A stretch of DNA of 64,000 nucleotides from Blastocatellia bacterium (GCA_963765495.1 CAVXWP010000009.1:448001-512000); one strand, 5' to 3'; counted from the first letter of the stretch, positions 6,467 through 27,333 are shown. The notes: a model not told the origin generated them from the letters alone. Program-made: numbers and translations.

Positions 6467-6880
6467 TCAGGCGGCTTGATCGGTGTTGCGCGCATTGTTT
6501 TTGATAAACTCGATTATCTCTTCCATCTTTGCGCCGGGGGTGAATATCTCTGTTACGCCCAGTTCTTTCAGTCGCGGGATGTCTTCATCGGGGATGATAC
6601 CGCCTCCGAATATGATTACGTCATCAAGACCCGCATCGCGCGCAAGCTCGACCACTCGCGGAAATAATGTCATGTGCGCGCCCGACAGTATTGATAATCC
6701 TATCGCGGCCACGTCTTCCTGAACCGCAGCGTTGACTACCTGTTCGGGCGTCTGCCTGAGTCCGGTGTAGATGACTTCCATTCCGGCATCGCGCAACGCC
6801 CGCGCAATGACTTTGACTCCCCGGTCGTGCCCGTCAAGTCCCGGCTTTGCAAGCAATACTCTTATTCTCTCTTCAACCAT
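6467..6880 (-). CDS. Acyl-CoA mutase small subunit, cobalamin-binding (IcmB-like)
   Basis: [10 protein letters not shown] (DxHxxG), SILSGAH, GGGIIP. Confidence 0.95.
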
Positions 6881-6912
6881 AATTATTCACTGATCGGCTC
6901 TCTGATTTATCT

Positions 6913-8595
6913 TCAAAACATAGGTTCGCGGTACTCGCCATAGACGGGGCGGAGCGCGTCACACATCTCGCCAAGCGTCGCGTAAGCGCGCGCGCAATCG
7001 AGGAGTAAAGGCATGGCGTTTGCCCCTGCGCGAGCGCACTCGGTCAGCGCCTTGAGGTTGGCTTCCACAAGCGCGTTGTCGCGGTTGGCGCGCAGTTGAC
7101 TGAGTCTCTGGCTCTGGAGTTCGGCTACAGATTCGTCTATCTGCAAGAGAGGTATTTCGGCAGGCTCCTCTTTCATCAGGTAGTCGTTGACGCCGACGAT
7201 GATCTTGTCTTTCGACTCTACGGCAAGCTGATACTGATAGCTGGCCTCCTGAAGTTCGCGCTGTGGGAACCCCGCGTCAACGGCTTCGATCATTCCGCCG
7301 AAATCGTCTATCTTGCGGAAGTAATCGAACGCGCCTTCTTCCATTTCGCGTGTGAGTTTTTCTATAAAGTAAGAACCGCCCAGCGGGTCAATCGTATTCG
7401 TAACACCCGATTCGTGAGCGATGATCTGCTGAGTGCGCAGGGCGATAAGCGCCGCCTCGTCCGAAGGCAGCGCGAGCGCTTCGTCGTAAGCGTCGGTGTG
7501 AAGCGATTGAGTGCCGCCGAGCACGCCCGCAAGCGCCTGTATCGCCACCCGCACGATGTTGTTTAGCGGCTGCTGCGCGGTAAGCGATACGCCCGCCGTC
7601 TGAGTGTGAAATCTGAGGGTCCACGAGCGAGGATTTTGCGCGCCGAAGCGATCACGCATCACCCTGTACCAGATGCGGCGGGCCGCGCGGTACTTGGCTA
7701 TCTCTTCGAAGAAGTCGTTATGCGAATTGAAGAAGAAGCTCAGACGCGGCGCGAAATCATCTACATCCATCCCGTGATTGACCGCGTACTGAACGTACTC
7801 GATCCCGTCGCGCAAGGTGAAGGCGAGTTCTTGCAGGGCGGTCGAACCGGCCTCCCGGATGTGATAGCCGGAGATCGAAACGGGATTGAAGCGCGGGACC
7901 TCTTTGGTGCAGAACTCTATCGTATCGACGATGAGTTGCATCGCGGGTCGCGGCGGATATATCCATTCCTTTTGAGCTATGTACTCTTTGAGTATGTCGT
8001 TTTGGAGCGTGCCGCCTACGTTTTTCCAGTCAGCGCCCTGCTTTTCGGCCACGGCCAGAAACATCGCAAATATCATAGAAGCCGGGGCGTTGATGGTCAT
8101 CGAGGTAGTGACCTGATCGAGCGGGATGCCGTCGAAGAGCACTTCCATATCGGCGAGGCTCGAAATCGCAACGCCGCATTTTCCCACCTCACCTTCGCTG
8201 AAGGGATGGTCGGAGTCATAGCCCATCAGAGTCGGGAGATCGAAGGCTACGGAGAGGCCGGTCTGCCCGTGTTCGAGGAGGTACTTGAACCGTTTGTTTG
8301 TATCAAAGGCGGACCCGAAGCCCGCAAACTGTCGCATGGTCCAGAGCTTTCCGCGATAGCCCGTCGCGTGAATGCCGCGCGTGTAGGGCGGCTCGCCCGG
8401 AAAGCCCGACTCGGTTTCGTAATCGAAATCCGGCAGATCGTTTGGAGTGTAGAGCCGCTCGATTGGCTTGAGCGATACGGTTGTAAAGGTCTGTTTGCTT
8501 TCAGGTAAACGCTTGAGGGTCGGATTGAGCGTCTGCTCTTCCCATTCGCTTTCGGCTTCCTGCAATCGGTTTGTAATGTCGGTTGTGCTCATCAA
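6913..8595 (-). CDS. B12-dependent acyl-CoA mutase large subunit, isobutyryl-CoA mutase-like (IcmA)
   Basis: MCM fold motifs; WTMRQFAGF (Phe) and KEYIAQKEW (Gln) specificity residues. Confidence 0.9.
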
Positions 8596-8669
8596 ACTCT
8601 CCTCGGGATAAATATCAAAGCATACGTCATATAGATAATATCGGACATGTATGAACGAAGGTAAATTTG

Positions 8670-8699
8670 ATGATAGTTGACCGCCGATGAGAGTGTCAA
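8670..8699 (-). promoter_or_regulatory. Putative sigma70 promoter of the mutase operon
   Basis: TTGACA-18 nt-TATCAT on the minus strand, within an inverted repeat TAGTTGAC..GTCAACTA. Confidence 0.5.
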
Positions 8700-8913
8700 C
8701 TACGGGCCTTCTTGTGAAAAAAGCGCGGTTGCAGAAAATGAGGCCTCGATTTCATCTATGTAAGATGGACGGTATAGTGACCCGATACGCTGGCAATTGA
8801 AAATCGAGATTTCAAATGATAAGCTGTGCCGGACAGTAACCGGCCAGTTCTCGCAAAAAATATACCCGTCACTGGTTCAGGTCTCGTCGCCCGGAAAGAT
8901 GCACGGAGGCCAG

Positions 8914-11460
8914 ATGAGTCTAGCACACGACTCAAAAATAGGTTCATACAGGGTGCTTGCCGAGCTTGGAGCAGGCGGTATGGGCGAAGTATATCTGGCC
9001 GAAGACACACGGCTCGGACGCCGGGTGGCGCTCAAAGTCCTCTCGGCTAATTTCACAAAGAACAAAGACCGTGTTCAGCGTTTTCAACAGGAGGCTCGCT
9101 CCGCTTCGGCGCTCAATCACCCGAATATCATCACGATATATGAGATCGGGCAGGAAGGCCCCATACATTTCATCGCCACCGAATTGATAGACGGAGAGAC
9201 GCTTCGCCGCCACATATCGCGCGACCGTCTCTCGTGCCGCGAAGTGCTCGACATAGCCCTACAGGTAGCCAACGCGCTCGCAGCGGCGCATTCGACGCGA
9301 ATAGTGCACCGCGACATCAAGCCTGAAAACATCATGCTTCGCCCCGACGGCTACGTCAAAGTTCTCGATTTCGGACTGGCCAAACTGACGGCTTCTCCAA
9401 ACGATTCGGTACCCGTAGACCCGGATGCGGTGACGGCCATTGAGGCGAACGTGCCTCAAAAACGTATGGTCGAAACCGACCCCGGGACGGTGCTTGGAAC
9501 CGTCACCTACATGTCGCCCGAACAGGCGCGAGGCCAGCCCATCGATCTGCGGACCGATATATTCAGCCTAGGCGTGGTCATTTATGAAATGGTCGCAGGA
9601 AGGGTTCCATTCGAAGGCACATCCGTAAGCGATGTGATCGTTTCGATACTTGGAAGCCGCCCGTTGCCGCTCGCCCGTTATTCGCTGAACGTCCCAGACG
9701 AGCTTGAGCGCATAGTTAGCAAGGCGCTCGCAAAAGACAGGGAAGAGCGGTATCAGACTATAAAAGACCTCCTGATCGATCTTAAGAAGCTCAAGCAGCG
9801 GATCGAGATCGAAGAAGAACTGGAATTCTCTTCGCGCACCTATCAGGACCGCGAGACGGTAAGCATATCGAGCGCCAGCCCCGCTTCGGGCTCACGTTCC
9901 GGCTCAACCTCGGATGCCTCCTCAGGCTCAGGCGCTAAACAGGCATTCGCAGCGATGCCGAGCGTACCCGCAATAAGGACTTCATCGAGCGCCGAATACC
10001 TTATCACCGAAATCAAACGCCACAAGCGGGGCGCGATGATTACGGTCTTTCTTATCGCGGTGGCAATAGCCTCGCTTGCCTATTTCACAAGAGACAGCGG
10101 CAAGATCAACTCGCTTGCCGTCATGCCTTTCTCGAATGTGAGCGAGGATCAAAGCACAAAAGATCTGGGCAATTTACTGGCCCAGCGCATCATAAACACT
10201 CTTTCGCAGATGCCCGAACTCAAGGTGCAGTCCTTTCGCGCCGTGGCGCAGTTCAACAACCCGGAGACAGACCCGCAAACCGTAGGCACAAAGCTTGGCG
10301 TGCGCGCCGTTCTCGTAGGCAATTTCGTCAAGCGCGACCGCGACGACGGTCTCTTTATCAACCTTGAGCTTGTGGATGCGCGCGATAACAGCCAGATATG
10401 GGGCAAACAGTATGACAGAAAATTCGCCGACCTGCGCCGCGTTCAGGAAGAGATTCTGGCCGATGTATCGGCACGGCTCGGGCTGAAGATGAGCGAAGAA
10501 GAGAAGCGCGAGCGCGAGGCCGAACAGCTTTATCAGGAAGCGCGCAATTACTGGGAGAAGCGGACTGCGGACGGGCTGAAAAAGGCAATAGCTTCGTTTG
10601 AGCGCGCGATTGAAATACAACCGAATTACGCAGCGGCTTATGCGGGGCTGGCCGATTGCTACAATATGCTTGGAGTCTACGGCGCGCTCGCGCCCCTGGA
10701 AACTTTTCCGAAAGCGAGAGAGGCGGCCGAAAGGGCTCTGAGCATCGACTCGAAACTTGCCGAAGCCCACACCTCGCTTGCTTTCGTCATGTTTAGAGAA
10801 GAGTGGAAATGGGACGAGGCCGAAAACGAATTCGAGCAGGCCATCCGTCTCAACCCCGATTATCCGCAAGCGCATCAGTGGTACGCAAACTACCTGTCGG
10901 CCGTGGGTCGCCATCGCGAAGCCGAACAGGAGACGCGCCGCGTTCAGGAGCTTGATCCTACTTCACTCATCTTAAACGCGCATTTCGGATTTATATATTT
11001 CTGCGCCCATCGCTATGATGATGTTATAACGCTCAGCCAGAAGACGCTCGATCTGGACCCGAATTTCTTTGCGGCCCGGCGCTATCTGGGTCTTGCCTAC
11101 ACGCAAAAGAAGATGTACGACAAGGCCATCAACGAATATCAAAAAGCGCTTCAGGCATCAGGAAACTCGGCGCTAATCAAGGCCGAACTCGCGCAGGCGC
11201 TTGCATCGGGCGGCAAGAGGCAAGAGGCCGAAACCATCCTCGAAGAGTTGAAACAGCTCTCCTCTCAGCGTTACATTTCGCCCTATAACATAGCGTTGAT
11301 CTACGTGGCGCTTGGAGAGAAAGAACAGGCTTTCGAGTGGCTTGAGAAAGCCTTTGAAATGCGGGCCGATTTCCTCGTCTATATCAAAGTGGACCCCCGG
11401 CTCGATGCGCTCCACACCGACGCAAGATTCGACAACCTTGTGCGGCGGATAGGTCTGTGA
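8914..11460 (+). CDS. Hanks-type Ser/Thr protein kinase with TM helix, TolB-like domain and TPR repeats
   Basis: LGAGGMGEVY, VALK, HRDIKPEN, DFGLAK, YMSPEQ; SLAVMPF; TPRs; start chosen after GGAGG (ORF track begins 8797). Confidence 0.95.
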   Translation: MSLAHDSKIGSYRVLAELGAGGMGEVYLAEDTRLGRRVALKVLSANFTKNKDRVQRFQQEARSASALNHPNIITIYEIGQEGPIHFIATELIDGETLRRHISRDRLSCREVLDIALQVANALAAAHSTRIVHRDIKPENIMLRPDGYVKVLDFGLAKLTASPNDSVPVDPDAVTAIEANVPQKRMVETDPGTVLGTVTYMSPEQARGQPIDLRTDIFSLGVVIYEMVAGRVPFEGTSVSDVIVSILGSRPLPLARYSLNVPDELERIVSKALAKDREERYQTIKDLLIDLKKLKQRIEIEEELEFSSRTYQDRETVSISSASPASGSRSGSTSDASSGSGAKQAFAAMPSVPAIRTSSSAEYLITEIKRHKRGAMITVFLIAVAIASLAYFTRDSGKINSLAVMPFSNVSEDQSTKDLGNLLAQRIINTLSQMPELKVQSFRAVAQFNNPETDPQTVGTKLGVRAVLVGNFVKRDRDDGLFINLELVDARDNSQIWGKQYDRKFADLRRVQEEILADVSARLGLKMSEEEKREREAEQLYQEARNYWEKRTADGLKKAIASFERAIEIQPNYAAAYAGLADCYNMLGVYGALAPLETFPKAREAAERALSIDSKLAEAHTSLAFVMFREEWKWDEAENEFEQAIRLNPDYPQAHQWYANYLSAVGRHREAEQETRRVQELDPTSLILNAHFGFIYFCAHRYDDVITLSQKTLDLDPNFFAARRYLGLAYTQKKMYDKAINEYQKALQASGNSALIKAELAQALASGGKRQEAETILEELKQLSSQRYISPYNIALIYVALGEKEQAFEWLEKAFEMRADFLVYIKVDPRLDALHTDARFDNLVRRIGL

Positions 11461-21373: not shown

Positions 21374-21523
21374 CTAGATCGCCCTTCGGCGACCGCTGAT
21401 CAGGTTGAAGACCAATACGATTGCCGCCACAACTAGCAACAGGTGGATCAGCCCGCCGCCGATGTGGGCGATCATTCCCAGCATCCACAGAATAAGAAGA
21501 ATAACGATAATTGTCCAAATCAT
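21374..21523 (-). CDS. lmo0937-family small membrane protein (49 aa, absent from ORF track)
   Basis: Hand translation MIWTIIVILLILWMLGMIAHIGGGLIHLLLVVAAIVLVFNLISGRRRAI; GGAGG RBS. Confidence 0.92.
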   Translation of the reverse strand: MIWTIIVILLILWMLGMIAHIGGGLIHLLLVVAAIVLVFNLISGRRRAI

Positions 21524-21634
21524 AACTCACCTCCATGCCCGGTCTTCTTCCTATATTCACGGTGTCGGGTGCCCGAGCAGTTTAACTCGACTTCCGATTA
21601 CTATTTAATGATACGCCTCGCCAGTTTGGGTTTC

Positions 21635-21650
21635 AGTGCATTAAAGAACA
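21635..21650 (-). promoter_or_regulatory. Crp-family operator-like site 1 (lmo0937 promoter)
   Basis: TGTTC-TTTAAT-GCACT on minus strand, 21 nt before TATCAT (21613-21608). Confidence 0.55.
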
Positions 21651-21838
21651 TATTAACGAATGACCGACAGAAGAACGTTGGGAGCAAAAACGACCCGATC
21701 CAGGTAAGTGCCGAGATGCTTTTTTATAATGAGCAAGCGCTCGGCGTCTGCCCAACCGGCATAGCCAGTCATTCGGCATTTATGCTGAATCTTTTGGAGC
21801 CGGTCGCCTGCGCCAGTAACCGGCGATAATTCAGGTAC

Positions 21839-21854
21839 TGTCCTGTATTGAACA
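21839..21854 (+). promoter_or_regulatory. Crp-family operator-like site 2 (crp paralogue 1 promoter)
   Basis: TGTCC-TGTATT-GAACA, 21 nt before TAAACT (21876-21881). Confidence 0.7.
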
Positions 21855-21945
21855 GAGGTCATTCTATTTTGGGCGTAAACTGTTATTGTGGAGAGATAAA
21901 TGGCGATTCTTATCTGAGAATCGCTAGAAACGAAAATGAATAAGA

Positions 21946-22626
21946 ATGATTGAACATAATCCTGATACGATTCTATTCAAAGAACAGATGCGCGGCTCAT
22001 TGCAACGCGAGACCAGGAATTCCAGCGCGATCAAAATTGCCAAACACAGCAATGTCTACACGGTCGGCGAGGCAATCGAGATGGTCTACTTCATCGAAAG
22101 CGGCAAGGTCAAACTCGTCATGATCTCGTCTGAGGGCAAGGAGTGCTTGCTGGCTATCCACGGCGCGGGGGATATTTTCGGTGAGCTGTGCCTGTCGGGA
22201 CTAAAGGGCCGGCTCGAAACCGCGAGCGCCATGGAAGAGACGGTTTTGAAACAGGTTCCCTGCGGCAGATTCCTTGGGCGGTTAGCCACGGACTCGTTGC
22301 TGGAAGGCTTTATCAAGTACCTGACAGTGCGCGTGGCGGATCAGCAGGAAGTCATCGCAAATCTCGTGACGGTCGATAGCGAACAACGGCTTGGACAGAC
22401 GCTTTTGCAAATCGCCAGAAAGCTGGGCAAAAAAGACCCGCGCAGCATTCGCATTGACCTGAAGATTTCACACGAAGAACTGGCCTCGATGATCGGCACG
22501 ACGCGTCCGCGAATCAGCGTGTTCATGCAGAGGTTTCGCAACCTCGGCCTCATTGAGATGAGCGCAGAGCGCCATCTCATCATCAAGGAACATAAGCTTG
22601 TGGCTTACCTCGCTTCCATCGCCTAG
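21946..22626 (+). CDS. Crp/Fnr-family transcriptional regulator, paralogue 1
   Basis: YFIESGKVKL, GDIFGELCL, HTH SHEELASMIGTTRPRIS. Confidence 0.95.
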   Translation: MIEHNPDTILFKEQMRGSLQRETRNSSAIKIAKHSNVYTVGEAIEMVYFIESGKVKLVMISSEGKECLLAIHGAGDIFGELCLSGLKGRLETASAMEETVLKQVPCGRFLGRLATDSLLEGFIKYLTVRVADQQEVIANLVTVDSEQRLGQTLLQIARKLGKKDPRSIRIDLKISHEELASMIGTTRPRISVFMQRFRNLGLIEMSAERHLIIKEHKLVAYLASIA

Positions 22627-22733
22627 CCGCCTAATCCAGACATCAGTAGCAGTATCGAACTGCGCGGGAACCGCAATCAGGGCATCGTGACTCTTTACCA
22701 TGCAATATAGAATAGTTGCGAGCGGCGGTTCGC

Positions 22734-23147
22734 CTACAGAATAAACTTCTCGATGGTCTCTTCCATCACGTCGAGGTCAAACGGTTTGTTGATGAAGGCT
22801 TGCGCTCCCGACTCAATCCCTACTGTCAAATCGGTTGGATAAGCGTATGCCGACAGGAAAACGATTGGCGTGCGAGCATCGAACGTGCGAATCTGCTTAC
22901 ACATCTCAACGCCGAGACCGTCGGGATACCAGCCGCCAAGGATCAGCAAGTCAAAGCCGCCTCTCTTGGTTAAGGGCATGGTTTCGGCTAAGGAGTTCGT
23001 CGTTGTCACTTTGTAGCCGCACAGGTCAAGCCAGTAGGCCATCATTTCGCGGGTATCATCATGGTAATCAGCGCACAAGATATGCTTGCGCCTCTTAACA
23101 GATAAATCCGAAGCCTTGTTGTTCGCCGCGAAAACCGTTTTGCTCAT
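22734..23147 (-). CDS. Stand-alone receiver-domain protein lacking the phospho-Asp
   Basis: REC fold (ILCAD, FDLLIL-G, FLSA, KPFD); GAGGGGG RBS at MSKTV. Confidence 0.85.
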   Translation of the reverse strand: MSKTVFAANNKASDLSVKRRKHILCADYHDDTREMMAYWLDLCGYKVTTTNSLAETMPLTKRGGFDLLILGGWYPDGLGVEMCKQIRTFDARTPIVFLSAYAYPTDLTVGIESGAQAFINKPFDLDVMEETIEKFIL

Positions 23148-23299
23148 ATCAGCCCCCTCATAATAATCCGAATTGACTGAGTATCGGTTACAAAAGTGAG
23201 TGAGGAAATCTATTTGCCCTTGCTTGTGTTTCACTTATGTAGACTGCTCAAATATTCCTGAAGCCAGGTAGGATAATATCTGCCAATTTCAAAGCGATC

Positions 23300-23315
23300 T
23301 GTTCAATACAGTACA
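23300..23315 (-). promoter_or_regulatory. Crp-family operator-like site 3 (receiver gene promoter)
   Basis: TGTTC-AATACA-GTACA (plus strand), 21 nt from minus-strand TATTAT (23278-23273). Confidence 0.7.
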
Positions 23316-23382
23316 GGGCGCAAAATAAATTCGAAGCATCCGGCGAATTGCCGCCTGGGAAGGCCCGCGCCGCGCGGCAAAA

Positions 23383-23787
23383 TTACAGGCGAGGGATCGG
23401 AGGGTTTTGACCCGCCACCGAACTTACTACCTTTATTTCCGGGTTCGTGTCAGCGGCAAAACTGGATATGGCTTCCGACTCCGAGTCAAACGTCTCGAAG
23501 ACGGTTATCAGCTTTGTGATTATCAGCAATTGATTCAGGCGCTTGCTGAGATTGAGCAACTTCATATGTCCGCTCACCTGTTGCATCTGCGTATAGCTAG
23601 CGATGAGTTCGCCAAGCCCGCTGCTGTCCATATAGTTCACTTTCGCCAGATTGATGAGCAGTCTGCGGCCTCCACTCGTGATGATGGTCTCAACATGGTG
23701 TTTGAAATCGGCATGCGCTCCCAAGGAAAAATTGCCGTCGAGATCAAGCACAGTTATATCGTTTAGCTTACGTTCCTGGATTTTCAT
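23383..23787 (-). CDS. STAS-domain anti-sigma factor antagonist
   Basis: VNYMDSSGLGEL phospho-Ser motif; ITVFETFDSESEAI. Confidence 0.93.
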   Translation of the reverse strand: MKIQERKLNDITVLDLDGNFSLGAHADFKHHVETIITSGGRRLLINLAKVNYMDSSGLGELIASYTQMQQVSGHMKLLNLSKRLNQLLIITKLITVFETFDSESEAISSFAADTNPEIKVVSSVAGQNPPIPRL

Positions 23788-23921
23788 GTCTATTCCTTCC
23801 CATTTCTTAAAAAGGCGAACTGTGAGGATTCAGGTGGACTGGATGATTCCAGAGAAGCTGAAGAAGAGAGCAATCCCGACTCAGTTCTCAGCCATTGTAT
23901 CACCAGAGAAGAGACCAGGTC

Positions 23922-23937
23922 TGTTCTATATTAGACG
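23922..23937 (-). promoter_or_regulatory. Crp-family operator-like site 4 (STAS gene promoter)
   Basis: TGTTC-TATATT-AGACG (plus strand), 22 nt from minus-strand TACAAT (23899-23894). Confidence 0.7.
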
Positions 23938-24432
23938 ATTACCAGAATCATTCGAGGGTGAGTATGGGGCCGGGGCAACAGGTCCGGGCGATTGATCTCC
24001 TTAATCCAGCGGGCAACAGCGACCGTCTCCGTTGCCACTTCGGCGGCGCCCGCATCCCTTTGTCAGAACTCTCACTTGCTTCGGCCCTCAACACTCAGGG
24101 CAAACTATTTTTCGGTATCGCTGATTACCATTCTGCGCCTGCTCGGCCCGCGGCTGCGGTCTCGATTTGCGCCTGATTCATCGCGTCGCGATCGGTCGCC
24201 GCTTGCTCGTTTGCGTGGTTGGCTTCTTTCTGCGCGCGGTCGGCTTCACTCTGAGCTTGATCTGCGTGCGGCCGTTTCTGTGCTTGACATCGGCCTTCCC
24301 TATGGCTCGTGGGGCGATGGCAGAACCCACCATGTTGATCGCGGTGCTGTCAAGTCTACGCAGACCCGGCTCCACTGAGCAGCCAGGAGCAGTGGAGCCG
24401 GGCACTTGTTAAAGACACCATCGTTTCAGTCT

Positions 24433-25368
24433 TTAGCGGAGCGGCTGCAAATTTAGAATCTGCGACAAGATAGCGCCAAGGATGCTATACCTGCCACGAG
24501 AATAACTGCCATATTGATGGCGGCTGGCGTAGCCATCTTCATAACCACGCTGGAAGCCCTCACGGAAGTAGTAGTTATAATCGTCCTGGCCTATGTAATA
24601 ACCATTATAGCCGTAGTTGGCGTCCTGATAGGCATACGACTCTGTGTAGTTGGAATTCCAGTGGTCCTGCCGGTCTGCCCGTCCAGCATTGTAGCCTTCC
24701 TGATAGCCGTTATTGACGGCTTGCCGGAGCAAATTCGCGCCGTATTGGTTTGTCTCGTAGTAGCTGCCGCCGCGATTGTAACGATAATTCGGCGCCGTGT
24801 AGAAGTACGGATCTCGGCTGTAGTTATGATTGCGATCATTCTGGATGCGCAATTGCTGCTGGCGCAGGCGCTGTAGGTACTGTTGCTGGTAACGGTACTG
24901 TGCCGTGCGCTTTTGTTCACGTAGCCGCGCGTTATGCTGCTGGGAGTCGCGCCGCTGCTCTTCCAGATGTTGACGGTACTGCGTCAGACGCTGCTGTTGC
25001 TGCTCAATGAGTTGCTGCTGACGCTGTTGTGGGAGACGCTCGCGCTGTTGTTGCGTTTCCTGTCTTTGCCGTTGATCTGTCTGTTGTCGTTGCCGTTTTT
25101 GCTGTTGCTGCTTTTCCTGCTGAACTTGCTGTTGTTGTTGGACTTGCGGCTGTGGGGGGTGCTGTTGCTCTTGCTTCGGTTGCTGTTGCTGCTTTTGGAC
25201 TTGCTGCTTTTTTTGTTTCCTCTCTTTTTTTTGCTGCTGTTTTTCGTCCTGCTTTTGTTGTTCTTGCTGTGGTTGTTGCCTGGCGTTTGCCGGTATGCTC
25301 ATTCCCACAAGCGACACCGCGCTGATTGCAACCACCGCAATCGTCCAGTTCAAGATTTTACTTTTCAT
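24433..25368 (-). CDS. Secreted Gln-rich low-complexity protein with Tyr/Gly/Asn-rich C-domain
   Basis: Signal peptide ending ANA; long poly-Q region; GYQEGY and GYEDGY repeats. Confidence 0.85.
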   Translation of the reverse strand: MKSKILNWTIAVVAISAVSLVGMSIPANARQQPQQEQQKQDEKQQQKKERKQKKQQVQKQQQQPKQEQQHPPQPQVQQQQQVQQEKQQQQKRQRQQTDQRQRQETQQQRERLPQQRQQQLIEQQQQRLTQYRQHLEEQRRDSQQHNARLREQKRTAQYRYQQQYLQRLRQQQLRIQNDRNHNYSRDPYFYTAPNYRYNRGGSYYETNQYGANLLRQAVNNGYQEGYNAGRADRQDHWNSNYTESYAYQDANYGYNGYYIGQDDYNYYFREGFQRGYEDGYASRHQYGSYSRGRYSILGAILSQILNLQPLR

Positions 25369-25495
25369 TGCATGCCTCTCTTAATGTTGCGGGCGCTCTA
25401 AATCGAGATTTATCGAGGCTTGAAGCGATGCGCCGCGAGCTTCAGCCCGTGAATTCAATCCATGATTAGTATAGGCCCGCTAGCATAAGGGGTGC

Positions 25496-25511
25496 TGTTC
25501 AGTATTAGACA
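25496..25511 (-). promoter_or_regulatory. Crp-family operator-like site 5 (Gln-rich gene promoter)
   Basis: TGTTC-AGTATT-AGACA (plus strand), 22 nt from minus-strand TATACT (25473-25468). Confidence 0.72.
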
Positions 25512-25697
25512 ATGGCCAATGTTGCCGGTCATCTTCGCCGTTAGCCCGCCCCATTCGGAGGTCTTGGCGTCGGCGCCCGGTTATCGCGGCCAGCTAATGA
25601 GCACGCAGGAGAACTGATGGCGATTCGATAAGTCTTGCTATATGATGAGTAGGCGCGCTGTCCTTGGCAATCAGAGGCATCGACAGGATAGTAGCCT

Positions 25698-26378
25698 ATG
25701 ATTCAACAGACTCCTCAGACGGACCTCTTCATAGAACAATTGCGCGTTTCCTTGCGGCGCGAGACCCGAGCCTCGCGCTCCATTAAGATCGCAAGGCATG
25801 AAAACGTTTACACCTGTGGAGCACAAGGCGAGACTATCTACTTCATTGAGCGCGGCCAGATAAAACTCGTCATGGTCTCGCCCGAAGGTAGAGAGTGCAT
25901 CTTTGCCGTCCACGGGGATGGCGAGATTTTCGGCGAGTTGAGCCTGTCAGGGTTAGGCGAACGCATTGAAACCGCCACGGCCATGGAAGATACCGATTTG
26001 AAAGCCATCCCTGCTTCTAAATTCTTTGCGCTGTTAGGGAGCAACTCGCTGCTTGAGGGATTTGTCCGCTACCTCGCCGTGCGCATTGCAGAACAACAGC
26101 AGGTTATAGCTCATCTGGTGACGGTGGATAGCGAACAGCGCCTGGGAAAAACCCTGTTACAACTGGCTCACACCCTCGGCACACAAGGCCCTGAAAGCCT
26201 GCGCATCGAATACAAGATCACACACGAGGAACTGTCAGAGATGGTCGGGACAACGCGGCCCCGGGTCAGCGTCTTTATGGAGCGATTTCGCAACCTCGGG
26301 CTGATTGAGAGTGGCACCGAGCACTTCCTCATCATCAATGAAAAGAAACTCATTGCTTATCTGGCTCATATCGCCTAG
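25698..26378 (+). CDS. Crp/Fnr-family transcriptional regulator, paralogue 2
   Basis: Same length (226 aa) and collinear with paralogue 1; THEELSEMVGTTRPRVS. Confidence 0.95.
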   Translation: MIQQTPQTDLFIEQLRVSLRRETRASRSIKIARHENVYTCGAQGETIYFIERGQIKLVMVSPEGRECIFAVHGDGEIFGELSLSGLGERIETATAMEDTDLKAIPASKFFALLGSNSLLEGFVRYLAVRIAEQQQVIAHLVTVDSEQRLGKTLLQLAHTLGTQGPESLRIEYKITHEELSEMVGTTRPRVSVFMERFRNLGLIESGTEHFLIINEKKLIAYLAHIA

Positions 26379-26448
26379 TTCTGTTGTTTAGTCCGCTGAC
26401 CGCCGATCAATCATTCCTATAAGCATTCGCCAATTATCTTCACCAGAT

Positions 26449-26464
26449 TGTTTAATATTGGACA
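26449..26464 (+). promoter_or_regulatory. Crp-family operator-like site 6 (csbD-cupin promoter)
   Basis: TGTTT-AATATT-GGACA, 21 nt before TACTAT (26486-26491). Confidence 0.7.
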
Positions 26465-26655
26465 GAACCCACTTCGCGGTTGGCCTACTATCTAAAGGGG
26501 AAGGACTCGGTGGGCAAGCGGTTTTTCAACACATCGAATGTTATCTGCCCCGGAATGCTATGGCCGCCTCCCGAGCCGCTCCGACATGCGCAATCTTTAA
26601 GATATCCGGTCAATCCCAACAACCAGAGGTTGGCAATCACCTGGAGGAGAGAGGT

Positions 26656-26868
26656 ATGAGGAACAGGCAGGAGATCAAAGGCAAAGGCAAACAAATTGCG
26701 GGCGCAATCAAGGATAAGGTCGGGAGATTGATCAATGACTCTGACCTCGCAGCCGAAGGTAGAGCCGAGCGCCGCAAAGGGCAAATACAGCAGAAAGTAG
26801 GGGAAACCCGCCGGAAAGCCGGTGACGTGTGGGAAAAGGTGGGCAACGCCATTTCCGGCAAACGATAG
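26656..26868 (+). CDS. csbD: CsbD-family general stress protein
   Basis: IKGKGKQIAGAIKDKVGRLINDSDLAAEG..KGQIQQKVG; GAGG RBS. Confidence 0.9.
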   Translation: MRNRQEIKGKGKQIAGAIKDKVGRLINDSDLAAEGRAERRKGQIQQKVGETRRKAGDVWEKVGNAISGKR

Positions 26869-26904
26869 CCTGGACGCCGGGGCATAAGGAAGGGAGAAAA
26901 GAAA

Positions 26905-27333
26905 ATGACTACACCGCAGAGGAAGGTCGCTCAAGAGAAGCAAGGCCGCACCGGTCACGAATCGCTGACAGGACACCTGACCGCACCGCTAATGGACTTC
27001 AATCTGCCGAACGAGATCACGCAACTCCATGCAGAGGAGGCGTGGCTGCGAACGGGCAGGAACTCGAAGACTCTGGTGAAGCAGCCTGATTTCAGGATCG
27101 TGCTGATCGCGTTGCAAAAGGGCGGTCACCTTGAAGAGCACAGTGCTGATGCGAGAATTTCGATATATACGCTGAGCGGGCTTGTGAAGCTACAATTGCC
27201 CGAGCAGACAGTTGAGCTGCCGGATGGTCATCTGCTCGTGCTCGACCGCGCGCTTGAGCACGACCTGGAGGCGCTCGAAGAGAGCGCAATCCTGCTGACC
27301 ATTTCCTGGCCGCATTCCGCAGAGATTGCGTGA
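26905..27333 (+). CDS. Cupin-domain protein
   Basis: RIVLIALQKGGHLEEHSA...LEHDLEALEESAILLTI. Confidence 0.85.
   Translation: MTTPQRKVAQEKQGRTGHESLTGHLTAPLMDFNLPNEITQLHAEEAWLRTGRNSKTLVKQPDFRIVLIALQKGGHLEEHSADARISIYTLSGLVKLQLPEQTVELPDGHLLVLDRALEHDLEALEESAILLTISWPHSAEIA

What the first reader, a model, noticed from the sequence alone, without database searches (positions are those of the whole stretch)
21374..27333. Self-contained Crp-family regulon with an unfamiliar operator TGTYY-N6-RNACA in class II geometry
Seen: six related 16-bp imperfect palindromes at 21635, 21839, 23300, 23922, 25496 and 26449 (e.g. TGTCC-TGTATT-GAACA, TGTTC-AGTATT-AGACA). Each is 21-22 nt upstream of a TAnnnT hexamer (TATCAT, TAAACT, TATTAT, TACAAT, TATACT, TACTAT) pointing at a gene: lmo0937, crp-1 itself, the pseudo-receiver, the STAS protein, the Gln-rich protein and csbD-cupin. 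Established: 5-6-5 symmetry centred near -41.5 is class II CRP activation, but E. coli CRP binds TGTGA-N6-TCACA. csbD and STAS genes are usually tied to alternative sigma factors. Inference: a general-stress module switched by an autoactivating Crp pair with its own DNA specificity; I do not recognise it as described.
Basis: partly seen in the sequence, partly recalled or inferred. Interest (0 to 1): 0.88.

Follow-up and report, generated by a model that had tools for sequence, protein, structure and literature searches.

The report
Crp-type stress regulon in Blastocatellia
A soil acidobacterium carries a small set of stress-type genes whose promoters all hold the same 16-base palindrome in place of the usual -35 box, most likely the docking site of its own Crp-like regulators; this is a new example of a textbook way of switching genes on.

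Summary
All six palindromes sit 21-22 nt upstream of a TAnnnT hexamer that points at a gene. Genome-wide, 10 of the 11 such site-plus-hexamer combinations lie in two islands, each next to a crp paralogue.

The architecture is conserved in other genera of the same uncultured Blastocatellia family. I found 135 promoter-type sites beside crp orthologues, with a consensus of TGTyCAATATTGrACA. The hexamer lies at exactly 21 nt in 109 of 303 site-orientations, against about 3 at other offsets.

A model built only from this genome's 11 promoters finds at least 2 matches in 15 of 15 relatives that have the Crp orthologue, and in 2 of 25 without it.

The regulators share an invariant recognition helix, TTRPR[IV]S. 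It lacks the Glu of E. coli CRP and is closest to CooA (RQTVSV) and Clr (RPKVNR), which also bind TGTY-type sites.

Best reading: a Crp/Fnr subfamily with no published description found, acting as a class II activator of small stress-type genes. crp1 is autoregulated and crp2 is not. The effector is unknown.

Binding, transcription start sites and the signal are all inferred. This is a new member of a known kind and of moderate interest.

The parts
21374..21526 (-). DUF5670 / lmo0937-family small membrane protein gene (target)
   Evidence: Pfam PF18919 E 5.5e-15; NCBIfam NF033488
21608..21613 (-). -10 hexamer TATCAT of the DUF5670 promoter
   Evidence: 21 nt after the site; also listed as a second hexamer
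21635..21650 (-). Operator 1, the weakest (16.9 bits): TGTTCTTTAATGCACT in promoter orientation
   Evidence: R1 22.1 bits. Orthologous DUF5670 promoters in other genomes carry stronger sites.
21839..21854 (+). Operator 2, upstream of crp1 (TGTCCTGTATTGAACA): the autoregulatory site
   Evidence: 23.7 bits. 22 of 31 Crp1-type orthologues have such a site.
21876..21881 (+). -10 hexamer TAAACT of the crp1 promoter
   Evidence: 21 nt after the site
21946..22626 (+). crp1: Crp/Fnr-family regulator, 226 aa, recognition helix TTRPRISVF
   Evidence: PF00027 plus PF13545. Reaches no NCBIfam equivalog cut-off. PDB comparisons.
22734..23150 (-). Single-domain receiver with Gly at the phospho-acceptor position (pseudo-receiver)
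   Evidence: PF00072. Alignment of 13 orthologues shows G/A/D/E at that column.
23273..23278 (-). -10 hexamer TATTAT of the receiver promoter
   Evidence: 21 nt after the site
23300..23315 (-). Operator 3 (TGTACTGTATTGAACA in promoter orientation)
   Evidence: 22.6 bits
23383..23787 (-). STAS / anti-sigma-antagonist-like protein that keeps the DSSGLG motif
   Evidence: PF01740; TIGR00377; alignment
23822..23893 (-). Conserved 5' leader of the STAS mRNA, starting right after the -10 (side finding)
   Evidence: no Rfam match
23894..23899 (-). -10 hexamer TACAAT of the STAS promoter
   Evidence: 22 nt after the site
23922..23937 (-). Operator 4 (CGTCTAATATAGAACA in promoter orientation)
   Evidence: 20.3 bits
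24433..25368 (-). Gln-rich secreted protein of unknown family (target)
   Evidence: ORF; no Pfam match; homologues behind sites in 5 loci
25468..25473 (-). -10 hexamer TATACT of the Gln-rich gene promoter
   Evidence: 22 nt after the site
25496..25511 (-). Operator 5 (TGTCTAATACTGAACA in promoter orientation)
   Evidence: 22.7 bits
25664..25692 (+). Candidate sigma-70-type promoter of crp2 (TTGGCA-17-GATAGT), ending 5 nt before the ATG
   Evidence: Consensus scan only (8 found against 4.6 expected in the region). A hint, not evidence.
25698..26378 (+). crp2: paralogue 64% identical to crp1, same recognition helix (TTRPRVSVF), no operator upstream
26449..26464 (+). Operator 6 (TGTTTAATATTGGACA)
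   Evidence: 22.4 bits
26486..26491 (+). -10 hexamer TACTAT of the csbD-cupin promoter
   Evidence: 21 nt after the site
26656..26868 (+). csbD-like gene
   Evidence: PF05532 E 2.5e-13
26905..27333 (+). Cupin-like gene 37 nt after csbD, probably in the same operon
   Evidence: PF07883 E 0.0017, below the curated cut-off. Homologue behind a site in one other locus (s094).

Best explanation
The window holds one of two islands of a small regulon. It is controlled by a subfamily of Crp/Fnr transcription factors, found in an uncultured family of Blastocatellia (Acidobacteriota), for which no published description was found.

The proposed mechanism is as follows. A Crp dimer binds the 16-bp palindrome TGTyCAATATTGrACA. 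The palindrome is centred 41.5 (or 42.5) bp upstream of the inferred start site and takes the place of the -35 hexamer. Only G-33 and A-32 of a -35 box remain. From there the dimer recruits the housekeeping RNA polymerase, which is class II activation. A T-rich block (TATTyT) 6 bp upstream of the palindrome is probably where the alpha C-terminal domain docks.

The targets are small stress-type genes: CsbD, DUF5670, a GlsB/YmgE-like membrane protein on C4, STAS, a receiver, and a Gln-rich secreted protein. In relatives they also include a CarD-like protein, RRM proteins, GroES and dodecin.

crp1 is itself driven by such a promoter, which gives positive feedback. crp2 has the same recognition helix but no operator, and may be the constitutively made primer.

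The effector is unknown and probably not cAMP bound in the canonical way.

Shown: the sequence architecture, its conservation, and its co-occurrence with the regulator. Inferred: binding, activation, start sites, the signal and the physiological role.
For: 1. Six promoters in the window align without gaps apart from a 1-nt spacer difference.

2. Genome-wide, 10 of the 11 site-plus-hexamer hits lie in two islands, each holding a crp paralogue. The four C4 hits were not used to train the matrix.

3. In DNA flanking crp orthologues from other genomes (750,104 bases, some loci overlapping) there are 135 promoter-type sites. Spacing is 21 nt in 109, 22 nt in 22, 23 nt in 3 and 20 nt in 1. Over 303 site-orientations, TAnnnT occurs 109 times at offset 21, against about 3 at most other offsets between 0 and 49.

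4. The distal half-site is not a selection artefact. Choosing sites only by the proximal half plus the -10 gave 60 sites, 59 of them with G and T at positions 2-3 of the unselected half. The control, with the hexamer demanded at 30 nt, gave 7 sites and no such signal. This argues for a dimeric binder.

5. A sequence-only model of G000's 11 promoters found at least 2 matches in 15 of 15 relatives with a Crp orthologue (E <= 1e-55), and in 2 of 25 without one. At E <= 0.01 the figures are 12 of 15 against 1 of 25.

6. The Crp proteins are the only ones with a DNA-binding domain among the annotated proteins of the island. They are also the most conserved neighbour, present in 45 of 47 loci, and no cyclase or kinase is among the clusters shared by at least 5 loci.

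7. The recognition helix TTRPR[IV]S.FM is invariant or nearly so in 42 to 58 orthologues. It lacks the Glu that reads the fourth base of TGTGA in CRP (PMC10187061, passages). This fits the degenerate Y at that position.

8. A natural promoter swap. Of 25 copies of one conserved 5' leader, 20 lie behind TTGACA(T)-N17/18-TAnnnT, 4 lie behind the palindrome at the same distance from the -10, and 1 lies behind neither (counted by eye). The palindrome therefore stands where a -35 box stands in housekeeping promoters of the same clade.

9. Autoregulation: 22 of 31 Crp1-type orthologues (at least 74% identity) have a site plus hexamer, centred 79-142 nt before the ATG.
Against: - There are no transcription start-site, expression or binding data. 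No RNA run was listed.
- The -10 assignment, and hence the -41.5 position, is inferred from sequence.
- The matrix and model were trained on the very sites under test. Relatives are kin, so counts across them overstate independence.
- Three genomes with the orthologue have only weak matches (best E 0.016, 0.115, 0.011). One genome without a detected orthologue (G021, 760 contigs) has a match at E 0.0018.
- 9 of 31 Crp1-type orthologues, 25 of the 27 more distant ones, and crp2 lack a detectable auto-site.
- A site overlapping the -35 region could in principle repress.
- Which paralogue binds cannot be told, since their helices are the same.
- The 'stress' role rests on family names from other phyla.
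Confidence: 0.75

Rival explanations
1. The palindrome is bound by the Crp paralogues, but they act as repressors that occlude the -35 region. The genes would be switched on when Crp leaves the DNA.
For: The site spans about -49 to -34 and so overlaps where sigma region 4 binds. Crp/Fnr proteins can repress; PMC545781 (passages) predicts repression for some HcpR sites.
Against: These promoters lack a -35 box: only G-33 (102 of 109) and A-32 (61 of 109) remain. Housekeeping-type promoters of the same clade have a clear TTGACA, in 20 of 25 leader copies. The spacing to the -10 is fixed to 21 nt in 109 of 135 sites. That is a face-of-the-helix constraint typical of class II activators and is not needed for occlusion.
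Confidence: 0.08
2. Another transcription factor, encoded elsewhere or unrecognised, binds the palindrome. The Crp genes would be merely co-inherited members of the regulon.
For: No binding data exist. crp1 is itself a target, so its linkage to the sites could be that of a target rather than a regulator.
Against: TGT-N10-ACA with 16-bp dyad symmetry is the Crp/Fnr operator format. The motif tracks the orthologue across relatives, 15 of 15 against 2 of 25. The helix change E to P matches the loss of G at position 4 (PMC10187061). No other protein with a DNA-binding domain was seen among the conserved neighbours, except a second, different Crp-type protein in 7 of 47 loci.
Confidence: 0.08
3. 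The proximal half-site plus the hexamer is the -35/-10 pair of an alternative (ECF-type) sigma factor, as expected for csbD and STAS genes.
For: GAAC-like -35 and CGTA-like -10 elements recall ECF promoters (recalled, not from a call). G is enriched at -15 and -13 before the hexamer.
Against: About 20 nt separate the AAC from the CGT, longer than the 16-17 nt of ECF promoters (recalled). The distal half-site, which a sigma factor does not need, is conserved in 59 of 60 sites chosen without reference to it.
Confidence: 0.03
4. The sites are chance matches or remnants of a repeated or mobile element.
For: The sites are short and AT-rich, and lie in intergenic DNA.
Against: Shuffle controls gave 0 of 100. 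The flanks are not alike beyond the promoter elements. The sites are conserved upstream of orthologous genes in other genera.
Confidence: 0.01

Closest known systems
E. coli CRP (CAP) at class II promoters
   Same: Two-domain protein with a cNMP-binding-like barrel and a Crp-type HTH. Binds a 16-bp dyad TGT-N10-ACA. Site centre inferred at -41.5, replacing the -35 box. An A/T-rich block lies just upstream, where the alpha C-terminal domain binds at class II promoters (mechanism from established knowledge and PMC10127613 passages).
   Different: Recognition helix is RPR[IV]SV, not RETVGR. The operator core is TGTyCAATATTGrACA, with a strongly conserved centre, not TGTGA-N6-TCACA. The phosphate-binding cassette reads R-L-E-T-A rather than R-S-A, and Gln-Gln stands where relatives have Thr-Asn or Thr-Ser. 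NCBIfam CRP scores are 53 and 62 bits against a cut-off of 266.
CooA, the CO-sensing Crp/Fnr activator (Carboxydothermus hydrogenoformans CooA-1, PDB 2fmy/2hkx)
   Same: Nearest solved DNA-binding domain (E 8.5e-12). Its helix RQTVSV against RPRISV here. Its operator TGTCGGCnnGCCGACA also starts TGTC (PMC545781, passages).
   Different: The sensor domain is not CooA-like. CooA lacks the GEL segment, and its CTH (with the heme-ligand His, as recalled) aligns with C-L-S here. There are no coo genes among the targets. The operator centre is AT-rich here and GC-rich in CooA.
Clr of Sinorhizobium meliloti (PDB 7pza)
   Same: Pro at the second position of the recognition helix (RPKVNR) and a basic residue at the third. 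Its operator HGTYHC-N4-GRWACA has the same degenerate Y at position 4 and a conserved inner C/G pair read by the basic residue. It activates from positions like class I and II (PMC10187061 section 14; PMC10127613 passages).
   Different: Clr binds cAMP and cGMP through Thr-Thr; here that pair is Gln-Gln. The conserved inner pair is at positions 5/12 here and 6/11 in Clr. Overall similarity is lower than to GlxR (E 4.9e-13 against 8e-20). The shared Pro may be convergent.
Stress-linked or cAMP-independent Crp homologues: SdrP (Thermus), DdrI (Deinococcus), Cmr (Mycobacterium), CrpPg (Porphyromonas)
   Same: These are Crp-family regulators tied to stress or stationary phase rather than catabolite control. 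Some act without cAMP (search listings and abstracts only; SdrP biology recalled).
   Different: SdrP binds AWTGTRA-N6-TYACAWT, a CRP-like site (abstract of PMC8465061). None is reported with this operator or this gene set. No orthology was shown here.

Membership tests
[quoted passage not shown] | N-terminal cNMP-binding-type beta-barrel domain | tested here: met
   PF00027 E 2.1e-13 (crp1) and 5.4e-16 (crp2), both above the curated cut-off
[quoted passage not shown] | C-terminal Crp-type helix-turn-helix | tested here: met
   PF13545 E 4.6e-14 and 8.1e-14; aligned with GlxR and CooA over the whole domain
[quoted passage not shown] | Operator is an inverted repeat of the TGT-N10-ACA format | tested here: met
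   Profile of 109 promoters. The distal half is conserved in 59 of 60 sites chosen without it. Binding itself was not tested.
cAMP receptor protein proper (E. coli CRP type) | Recognition helix R-E-x-x-x-R reading TGTGA | tested here: not met
   The helix is R-P-R-[IV]-S-V. The operator has Y, not G, at position 4. Only 4 classical TGTGA-N6-TCACA sites occur in the genome.
cAMP receptor protein proper (E. coli CRP type) | Canonical cAMP contacts: Glu and Arg-Ser/Thr of the phosphate cassette, and Thr/Ser on the C-helix | tested here: inconclusive
   Glu80 and Arg89 are invariant. The next residues are Leu-Glu instead of Ser/Thr-Ala. Gln133-Gln134 (invariant) align with Thr-Asn of GlxR. Ligand binding is not testable here.
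cAMP receptor protein proper (E. coli CRP type) | Reaches the NCBIfam equivalog score | tested here: not met
   NF008732: 53.3 and 62.3 bits against a cut-off of 266
FNR | N-terminal cysteine cluster for the Fe-S centre | tested here: not met
   There is no Cys before residue 67 in crp1 or crp2. NF008365 scores 52 and 50 bits against a cut-off of 228.
CooA | Heme-ligand His in the sensor domain and coo genes as targets | tested here: not met
   The CTH of CooA-1 aligns with C-L-S (the ligand identity is recalled). No CO-dehydrogenase genes were seen among targets or neighbours.
Class II activator-dependent promoter | Activator site centred near -41.5 relative to the start site, overlapping or replacing the -35 box | tested here: inconclusive
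   Met by sequence geometry. The site centre lies 29.5 bp before the first base of the -10, and the 21-nt spacing holds in 109 of 135 sites. Start sites are not mapped, and no RNA run was listed.
Sigma-B / partner-switching general stress module | STAS antagonist working with an anti-sigma kinase and an alternative sigma-dependent promoter | tested here: not met
   The STAS protein with DSSGLG is present. No kinase or sigma gene is among the conserved neighbours. The promoters have a dyad operator rather than a sigma-type -35.

The most novel reading that the evidence does not exclude
In this lineage of uncultured soil Acidobacteria, a two-tier circuit of Crp paralogues is the master switch of a dormancy or general-stress programme, taking the role that alternative sigma factors (sigma-B, RpoS, EcfG) play elsewhere.

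In this reading a constitutively made, possibly leaderless Crp2 primes the circuit. An autoregulated Crp1 amplifies it. A co-duplicated receiver with a drifting phospho-acceptor, and a STAS protein, act as modulators.

The circuit would sense not cAMP but another ligand or the redox state. The candidates for that role are the invariant pocket residues (Glu80, Arg89, Gln133, Gln134) and the invariant Cys67/His72.
Probability: 0.2. Interest if true: 0.65.

Novelty: new member of a known kind. Interest (0 to 1): 0.45.

Why it matters
Acidobacteria are among the most abundant soil bacteria, yet almost nothing is known about how they regulate genes. My literature searches found no description of any Crp regulon in the phylum.

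This finding gives a concrete, testable regulon:
- a defined operator;
- a precise promoter architecture, including what the housekeeping promoter of the clade looks like;
- a short list of conserved targets;
- a recognition-helix variant that adds to the known link between helix sequence and operator in the Crp/Fnr family.

It also suggests that csbD-type and STAS-type 'general stress' genes can be wired to an activator rather than to an alternative sigma factor. The mechanism itself is textbook, so the surprise for a specialist is moderate.

Tried and rejected
- Rfam: no family matched the island at E <= 1, nor the conserved leader in 10 further loci.
- RNA evidence: the look-up of sequencing runs listed no RNA holder. 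This is no evidence either way.
- Complex prediction with two copies of Crp1 plus the receiver, as alignments A4 and A5, returned 'no answer' with score 0.00. I draw nothing from it.
- The transcript-like stretch after the C4 site (L001 6850-7100) was not found in 40 relatives by BLAST, so I do not claim a conserved sRNA.
- Covariation in the 5' leader is weak: 1 compensatory pair among 13 predicted pairs. Its structure is therefore not supported, only its sequence conservation.
- The ECF-sigma reading was rejected on spacing and on the conserved distal half-site.
- The CooA and FNR readings were rejected on sensor residues.
- NCBIfam gave no equivalog. Homologues in the large protein collection carry only generic Crp/Fnr names.
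- Paper searches for an acidobacterial Crp regulon found nothing relevant. One search gave nothing closer.
- Supplementary tables of the Clr and CooA papers, which list individual sites, were not seen.
- Not used: structure prediction, fold search, the search of protein representatives, the protein-atlas search.

Full report
WHAT IS THERE

The window is contig C9:448001-512000 of a 7.3-Mb, 17-contig genome. Near-identical loci in public records are titled as uncultured Blastocatellia (Acidobacteriota) genomes. A few are labelled Clostridia or Heliomicrobium, probably wrongly.

Between 21.4 and 27.3 kb lie these genes:
- a DUF5670/lmo0937 gene;
- crp1;
- a single-domain receiver with Gly at the phospho-acceptor position;
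- a STAS gene that keeps the DSSGLG motif;
- a Gln-rich secreted protein;
- crp2;
- csbD followed by a cupin-like gene.

THE OBSERVATION

Written in the direction of the gene each one faces, the six sites align as a 16-mer, a 21- or 22-nt spacer, and TAnnnT.

It fits only 4 of the 6 sites exactly. A refined pattern gives 8 against 0.87 expected.

Genome-wide, TGTNCNNTATTNNACA occurs 6 times, 4 of them here. Using a matrix of the six sites, 85 site-orientations reach 14 bits and 11 of those have a hexamer 20-23 nt downstream. Ten of the 11 lie in this island or in a second one at C4:203.8-206.1 kb.

The C4 island was not used for training. It holds a third crp with one frameshift or stop, a second receiver with Ala at the acceptor position, a GlsB/YmgE-like membrane protein, and two further units. 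A model of all 11 promoters finds nothing else in the 64-kb window except the reverse readings of the same sites.

CONSERVATION

The Crp orthologue is present in 15 of 40 relatives at E <= 1e-55, often in two or three copies a few kb apart. DNA around these genes in other genera is dense with the same motif.

Over all fetched loci (750,104 bases, with some overlap between loci) I found 135 promoter-type sites after removing duplicates. The 109 with 21-nt spacing give the following profile, counting from the first base of the palindrome:
- TATTyT at -12 to -7;
- the palindrome TGTyCAATATTGrACA, with T8 and A9 each in 106 of 109;
- G in 102 of 109 and A or C directly after it;
- G-n-G before TAtnnT.

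With the hexamer placed at -12 to -7, the palindrome is centred at -41.5. The G and A that follow it fall on -33 and -32, the G and A of a TTGACA box at 17-nt spacing.

The spacing is sharp. Over 303 site-orientations the hexamer occurs 109 times at offset 21 and 22 times at offset 22, against about 3 at most of the other offsets tested.

Because the sites were picked with a palindromic matrix, I repeated the search using only the proximal half plus the hexamer. Of 60 sites found, 59 have G-T and 47 have T at the start of the unselected distal half. A control with the hexamer demanded at 30 nt gave 7 sites and no signal.

WHO BINDS

A sequence-only covariance model built from this genome's 11 promoters was run on 40 relatives. 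All 15 genomes with the orthologue have at least 2 matches (range 2 to 29). Of the 25 without it, 2 have two matches, both at E > 0.1, and 17 have none. At E <= 0.01 the split is 12 of 15 against 1 of 25. The exception is a 760-contig genome of a genus whose other member has the gene. These genomes are kin, so this is association, not statistics.

The Crp proteins are the only proteins with a DNA-binding domain among the annotated proteins of the island. They are the most conserved neighbour, present in 45 of 47 loci.

Their recognition helix, TTRPR[IV]S.FM, is invariant or nearly so in 42 aligned orthologues and in 58 unique sequences. Against GlxR it aligns as RPRISV to RETVNK. The Glu that reads the G of TGTG in CRP (PMC10187061, passages) is therefore replaced by Pro, which fits the Y at that position.

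The nearest solved DNA-binding domain is CooA-1, with helix RQTVSV (E 8.5e-12). Its operator, TGTCGGCnnGCCGACA, also begins TGTC (PMC545781, passages).

Clr of S. meliloti has RPKVNR and binds HGTYHC-N4-GRWACA. Its Lys reads the guanine opposite the inner C (PMC10187061 section 14; PMC10127613 passages). The Arg at the same place here may do the same for C5, but this is inference.

ACTIVATION RATHER THAN REPRESSION

One conserved 5' leader gives an internal control. Of the 25 copies examined in 19 genomes, 20 lie behind TTGACA (one of them TTGACT)-N17/18-TAnnnT. Four lie behind the palindrome at the same distance from the hexamer, including the STAS gene of the window. One lies behind neither (counted by eye).

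Housekeeping promoters of this clade therefore need a -35 box, and the palindrome stands exactly where that box would be. Together with the fixed spacing, this points to class II activation. Start sites are not mapped, and no RNA run was listed.

THE CIRCUIT

Among 31 unique orthologues at least 74% identical to Crp1, 22 have a site plus hexamer centred 79-142 nt before the ATG. Among the 27 more distant ones, 2 do. crp2 and its two close orthologues do not.

crp2 is 64% identical to crp1 and has the same helix. It has a TTGGCA-17-GATAGT match ending 5 nt before its ATG, from a consensus scan only.

TARGETS

Taking the longest ORF after each of the 135 sites (Pfam for representatives), the counts are:
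- crp: 24;
- receiver: 13;
- CarD-like protein: 12;
- DUF5670: 13 (9 of these were called through an overlapping longer frame, as in the window, and were not checked one by one);
- STAS: 6;
- Gln-rich protein: 5.

Smaller numbers are CsbD, GlsB-like, RRM protein, GroES, dodecin, Ysc84-domain and OmpA-family proteins.

The phospho-acceptor column of the receiver reads G, A, D or E in different genomes.

The 'stress' label comes from family names only.

THE EFFECTOR

Glu80 and Arg89 of the phosphate cassette are invariant. The cassette reads R-L-E-T-A rather than R-S/T-A, and the invariant Gln133-Gln134 align with Thr-Asn of GlxR. Cys67 and His72 are invariant. Cys82 is at 90% or more, but is Ser in Crp2.

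An invariant pocket argues for a ligand, but not for cAMP bound in the usual way. The sensor is not CooA-like and has no FNR cysteine cluster. No cyclase or kinase is among the conserved neighbours. The signal remains open.

COMPARISON AND NOVELTY

The proteins reach no NCBIfam equivalog cut-off. They carry only generic names in a collection where over 120 clusters are at least 77% identical to Crp1.

Searches of the held library found no account of a Crp regulon in Acidobacteria. Supplements were closed.

The mechanism is that of CRP at class II promoters, and the operator belongs with the TGTY-type sites of CooA and Clr. What is new is the subfamily, its AT-centred operator, its gene set and its paralogue wiring.

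I file it as a new member of a known kind, with interest 0.45.

Noticed in passing
window 23822-23893 (-); second copy G000:C4:202333-202398 (L103): A 5' leader of about 70 nt starts right after the -10. Its 45-nt core is 89-100% identical across genera. It was found in 19 of 41 genomes, including ones without the Crp orthologue. It lies ahead of genes for ~105-aa proteins of unknown family, RRM proteins, an Hsp20-like protein and STAS. There is no Rfam match. Two short hairpins are predicted, but only 1 compensatory pair supports them. It may be a translational control element.
   Followed up: partly
L001 (G000:C4:197000-213000), 6850-9140: A second island with five more promoters of the same type. 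It holds a third crp paralogue (73% identical to crp1) interrupted by a frameshift or one TGA, which is either a pseudogene or an assembly error.
   Followed up: partly
L001 6868-7100 (+): One operator plus hexamer is followed by no gene. Instead there is a stretch of about 175 nt with a long hairpin and a strong terminator-like hairpin plus T-run, and a tiny ORF with a run of prolines. This is a candidate small RNA. It was not found in 40 relatives by BLAST.
   Followed up: partly
window 24181-24405 (-): A 75-aa ORF has 35 residues that are 69% identical to residues 53-87 of a 507-aa OmpA-family target gene in a relative's island. It is probably a remnant of that gene.
   Followed up: partly
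window promoters and 109 aligned promoters, 7-12 nt upstream of each palindrome: A T-rich block, TATTyT, present in 69-82 of 109 per position. A similar block seems to lie about 8 bp closer to the -35 box in the housekeeping-type leader promoters (by eye). That is what an alpha-CTD docking site displaced by the activator would look like.
   Followed up: partly
window 22734-23150 (-) and orthologues: The phospho-acceptor column of the receiver reads G (window), A (C4 copy and one relative), D or E in other genomes. The protein seems to drift between phosphorylatable, mimic and dead forms. It is duplicated together with crp in both islands.
   Followed up: partly
window 25664-25700: crp2 may be a leaderless mRNA. 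A TTGGCA-17-GATAGT match ends 5 nt before its ATG.
   Followed up: no
G000:C17:70148, C7:847750, C11:24832: Isolated good palindromes with no -10, directly followed by runs of GGGGCC-like repeats. The C7 and C11 copies have identical flanks. Unexplained.
   Followed up: no
L036, L059, L062-L068, L082 (record titles): Records titled Clostridia, Heliomicrobium or Heliobacteriaceae encode Crp proteins 69-91% identical to this acidobacterial one, inside the same kind of island. The taxonomic labels of these bins look wrong.
   Followed up: no
loci around crp orthologues: A CarD-like protein (CarD_C plus RID domains) is a target in 12 loci and a neighbour in 16 of 47 loci, but it is not in this genome's two islands. 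It would be an RNA-polymerase-binding factor under Crp control.
   Followed up: partly
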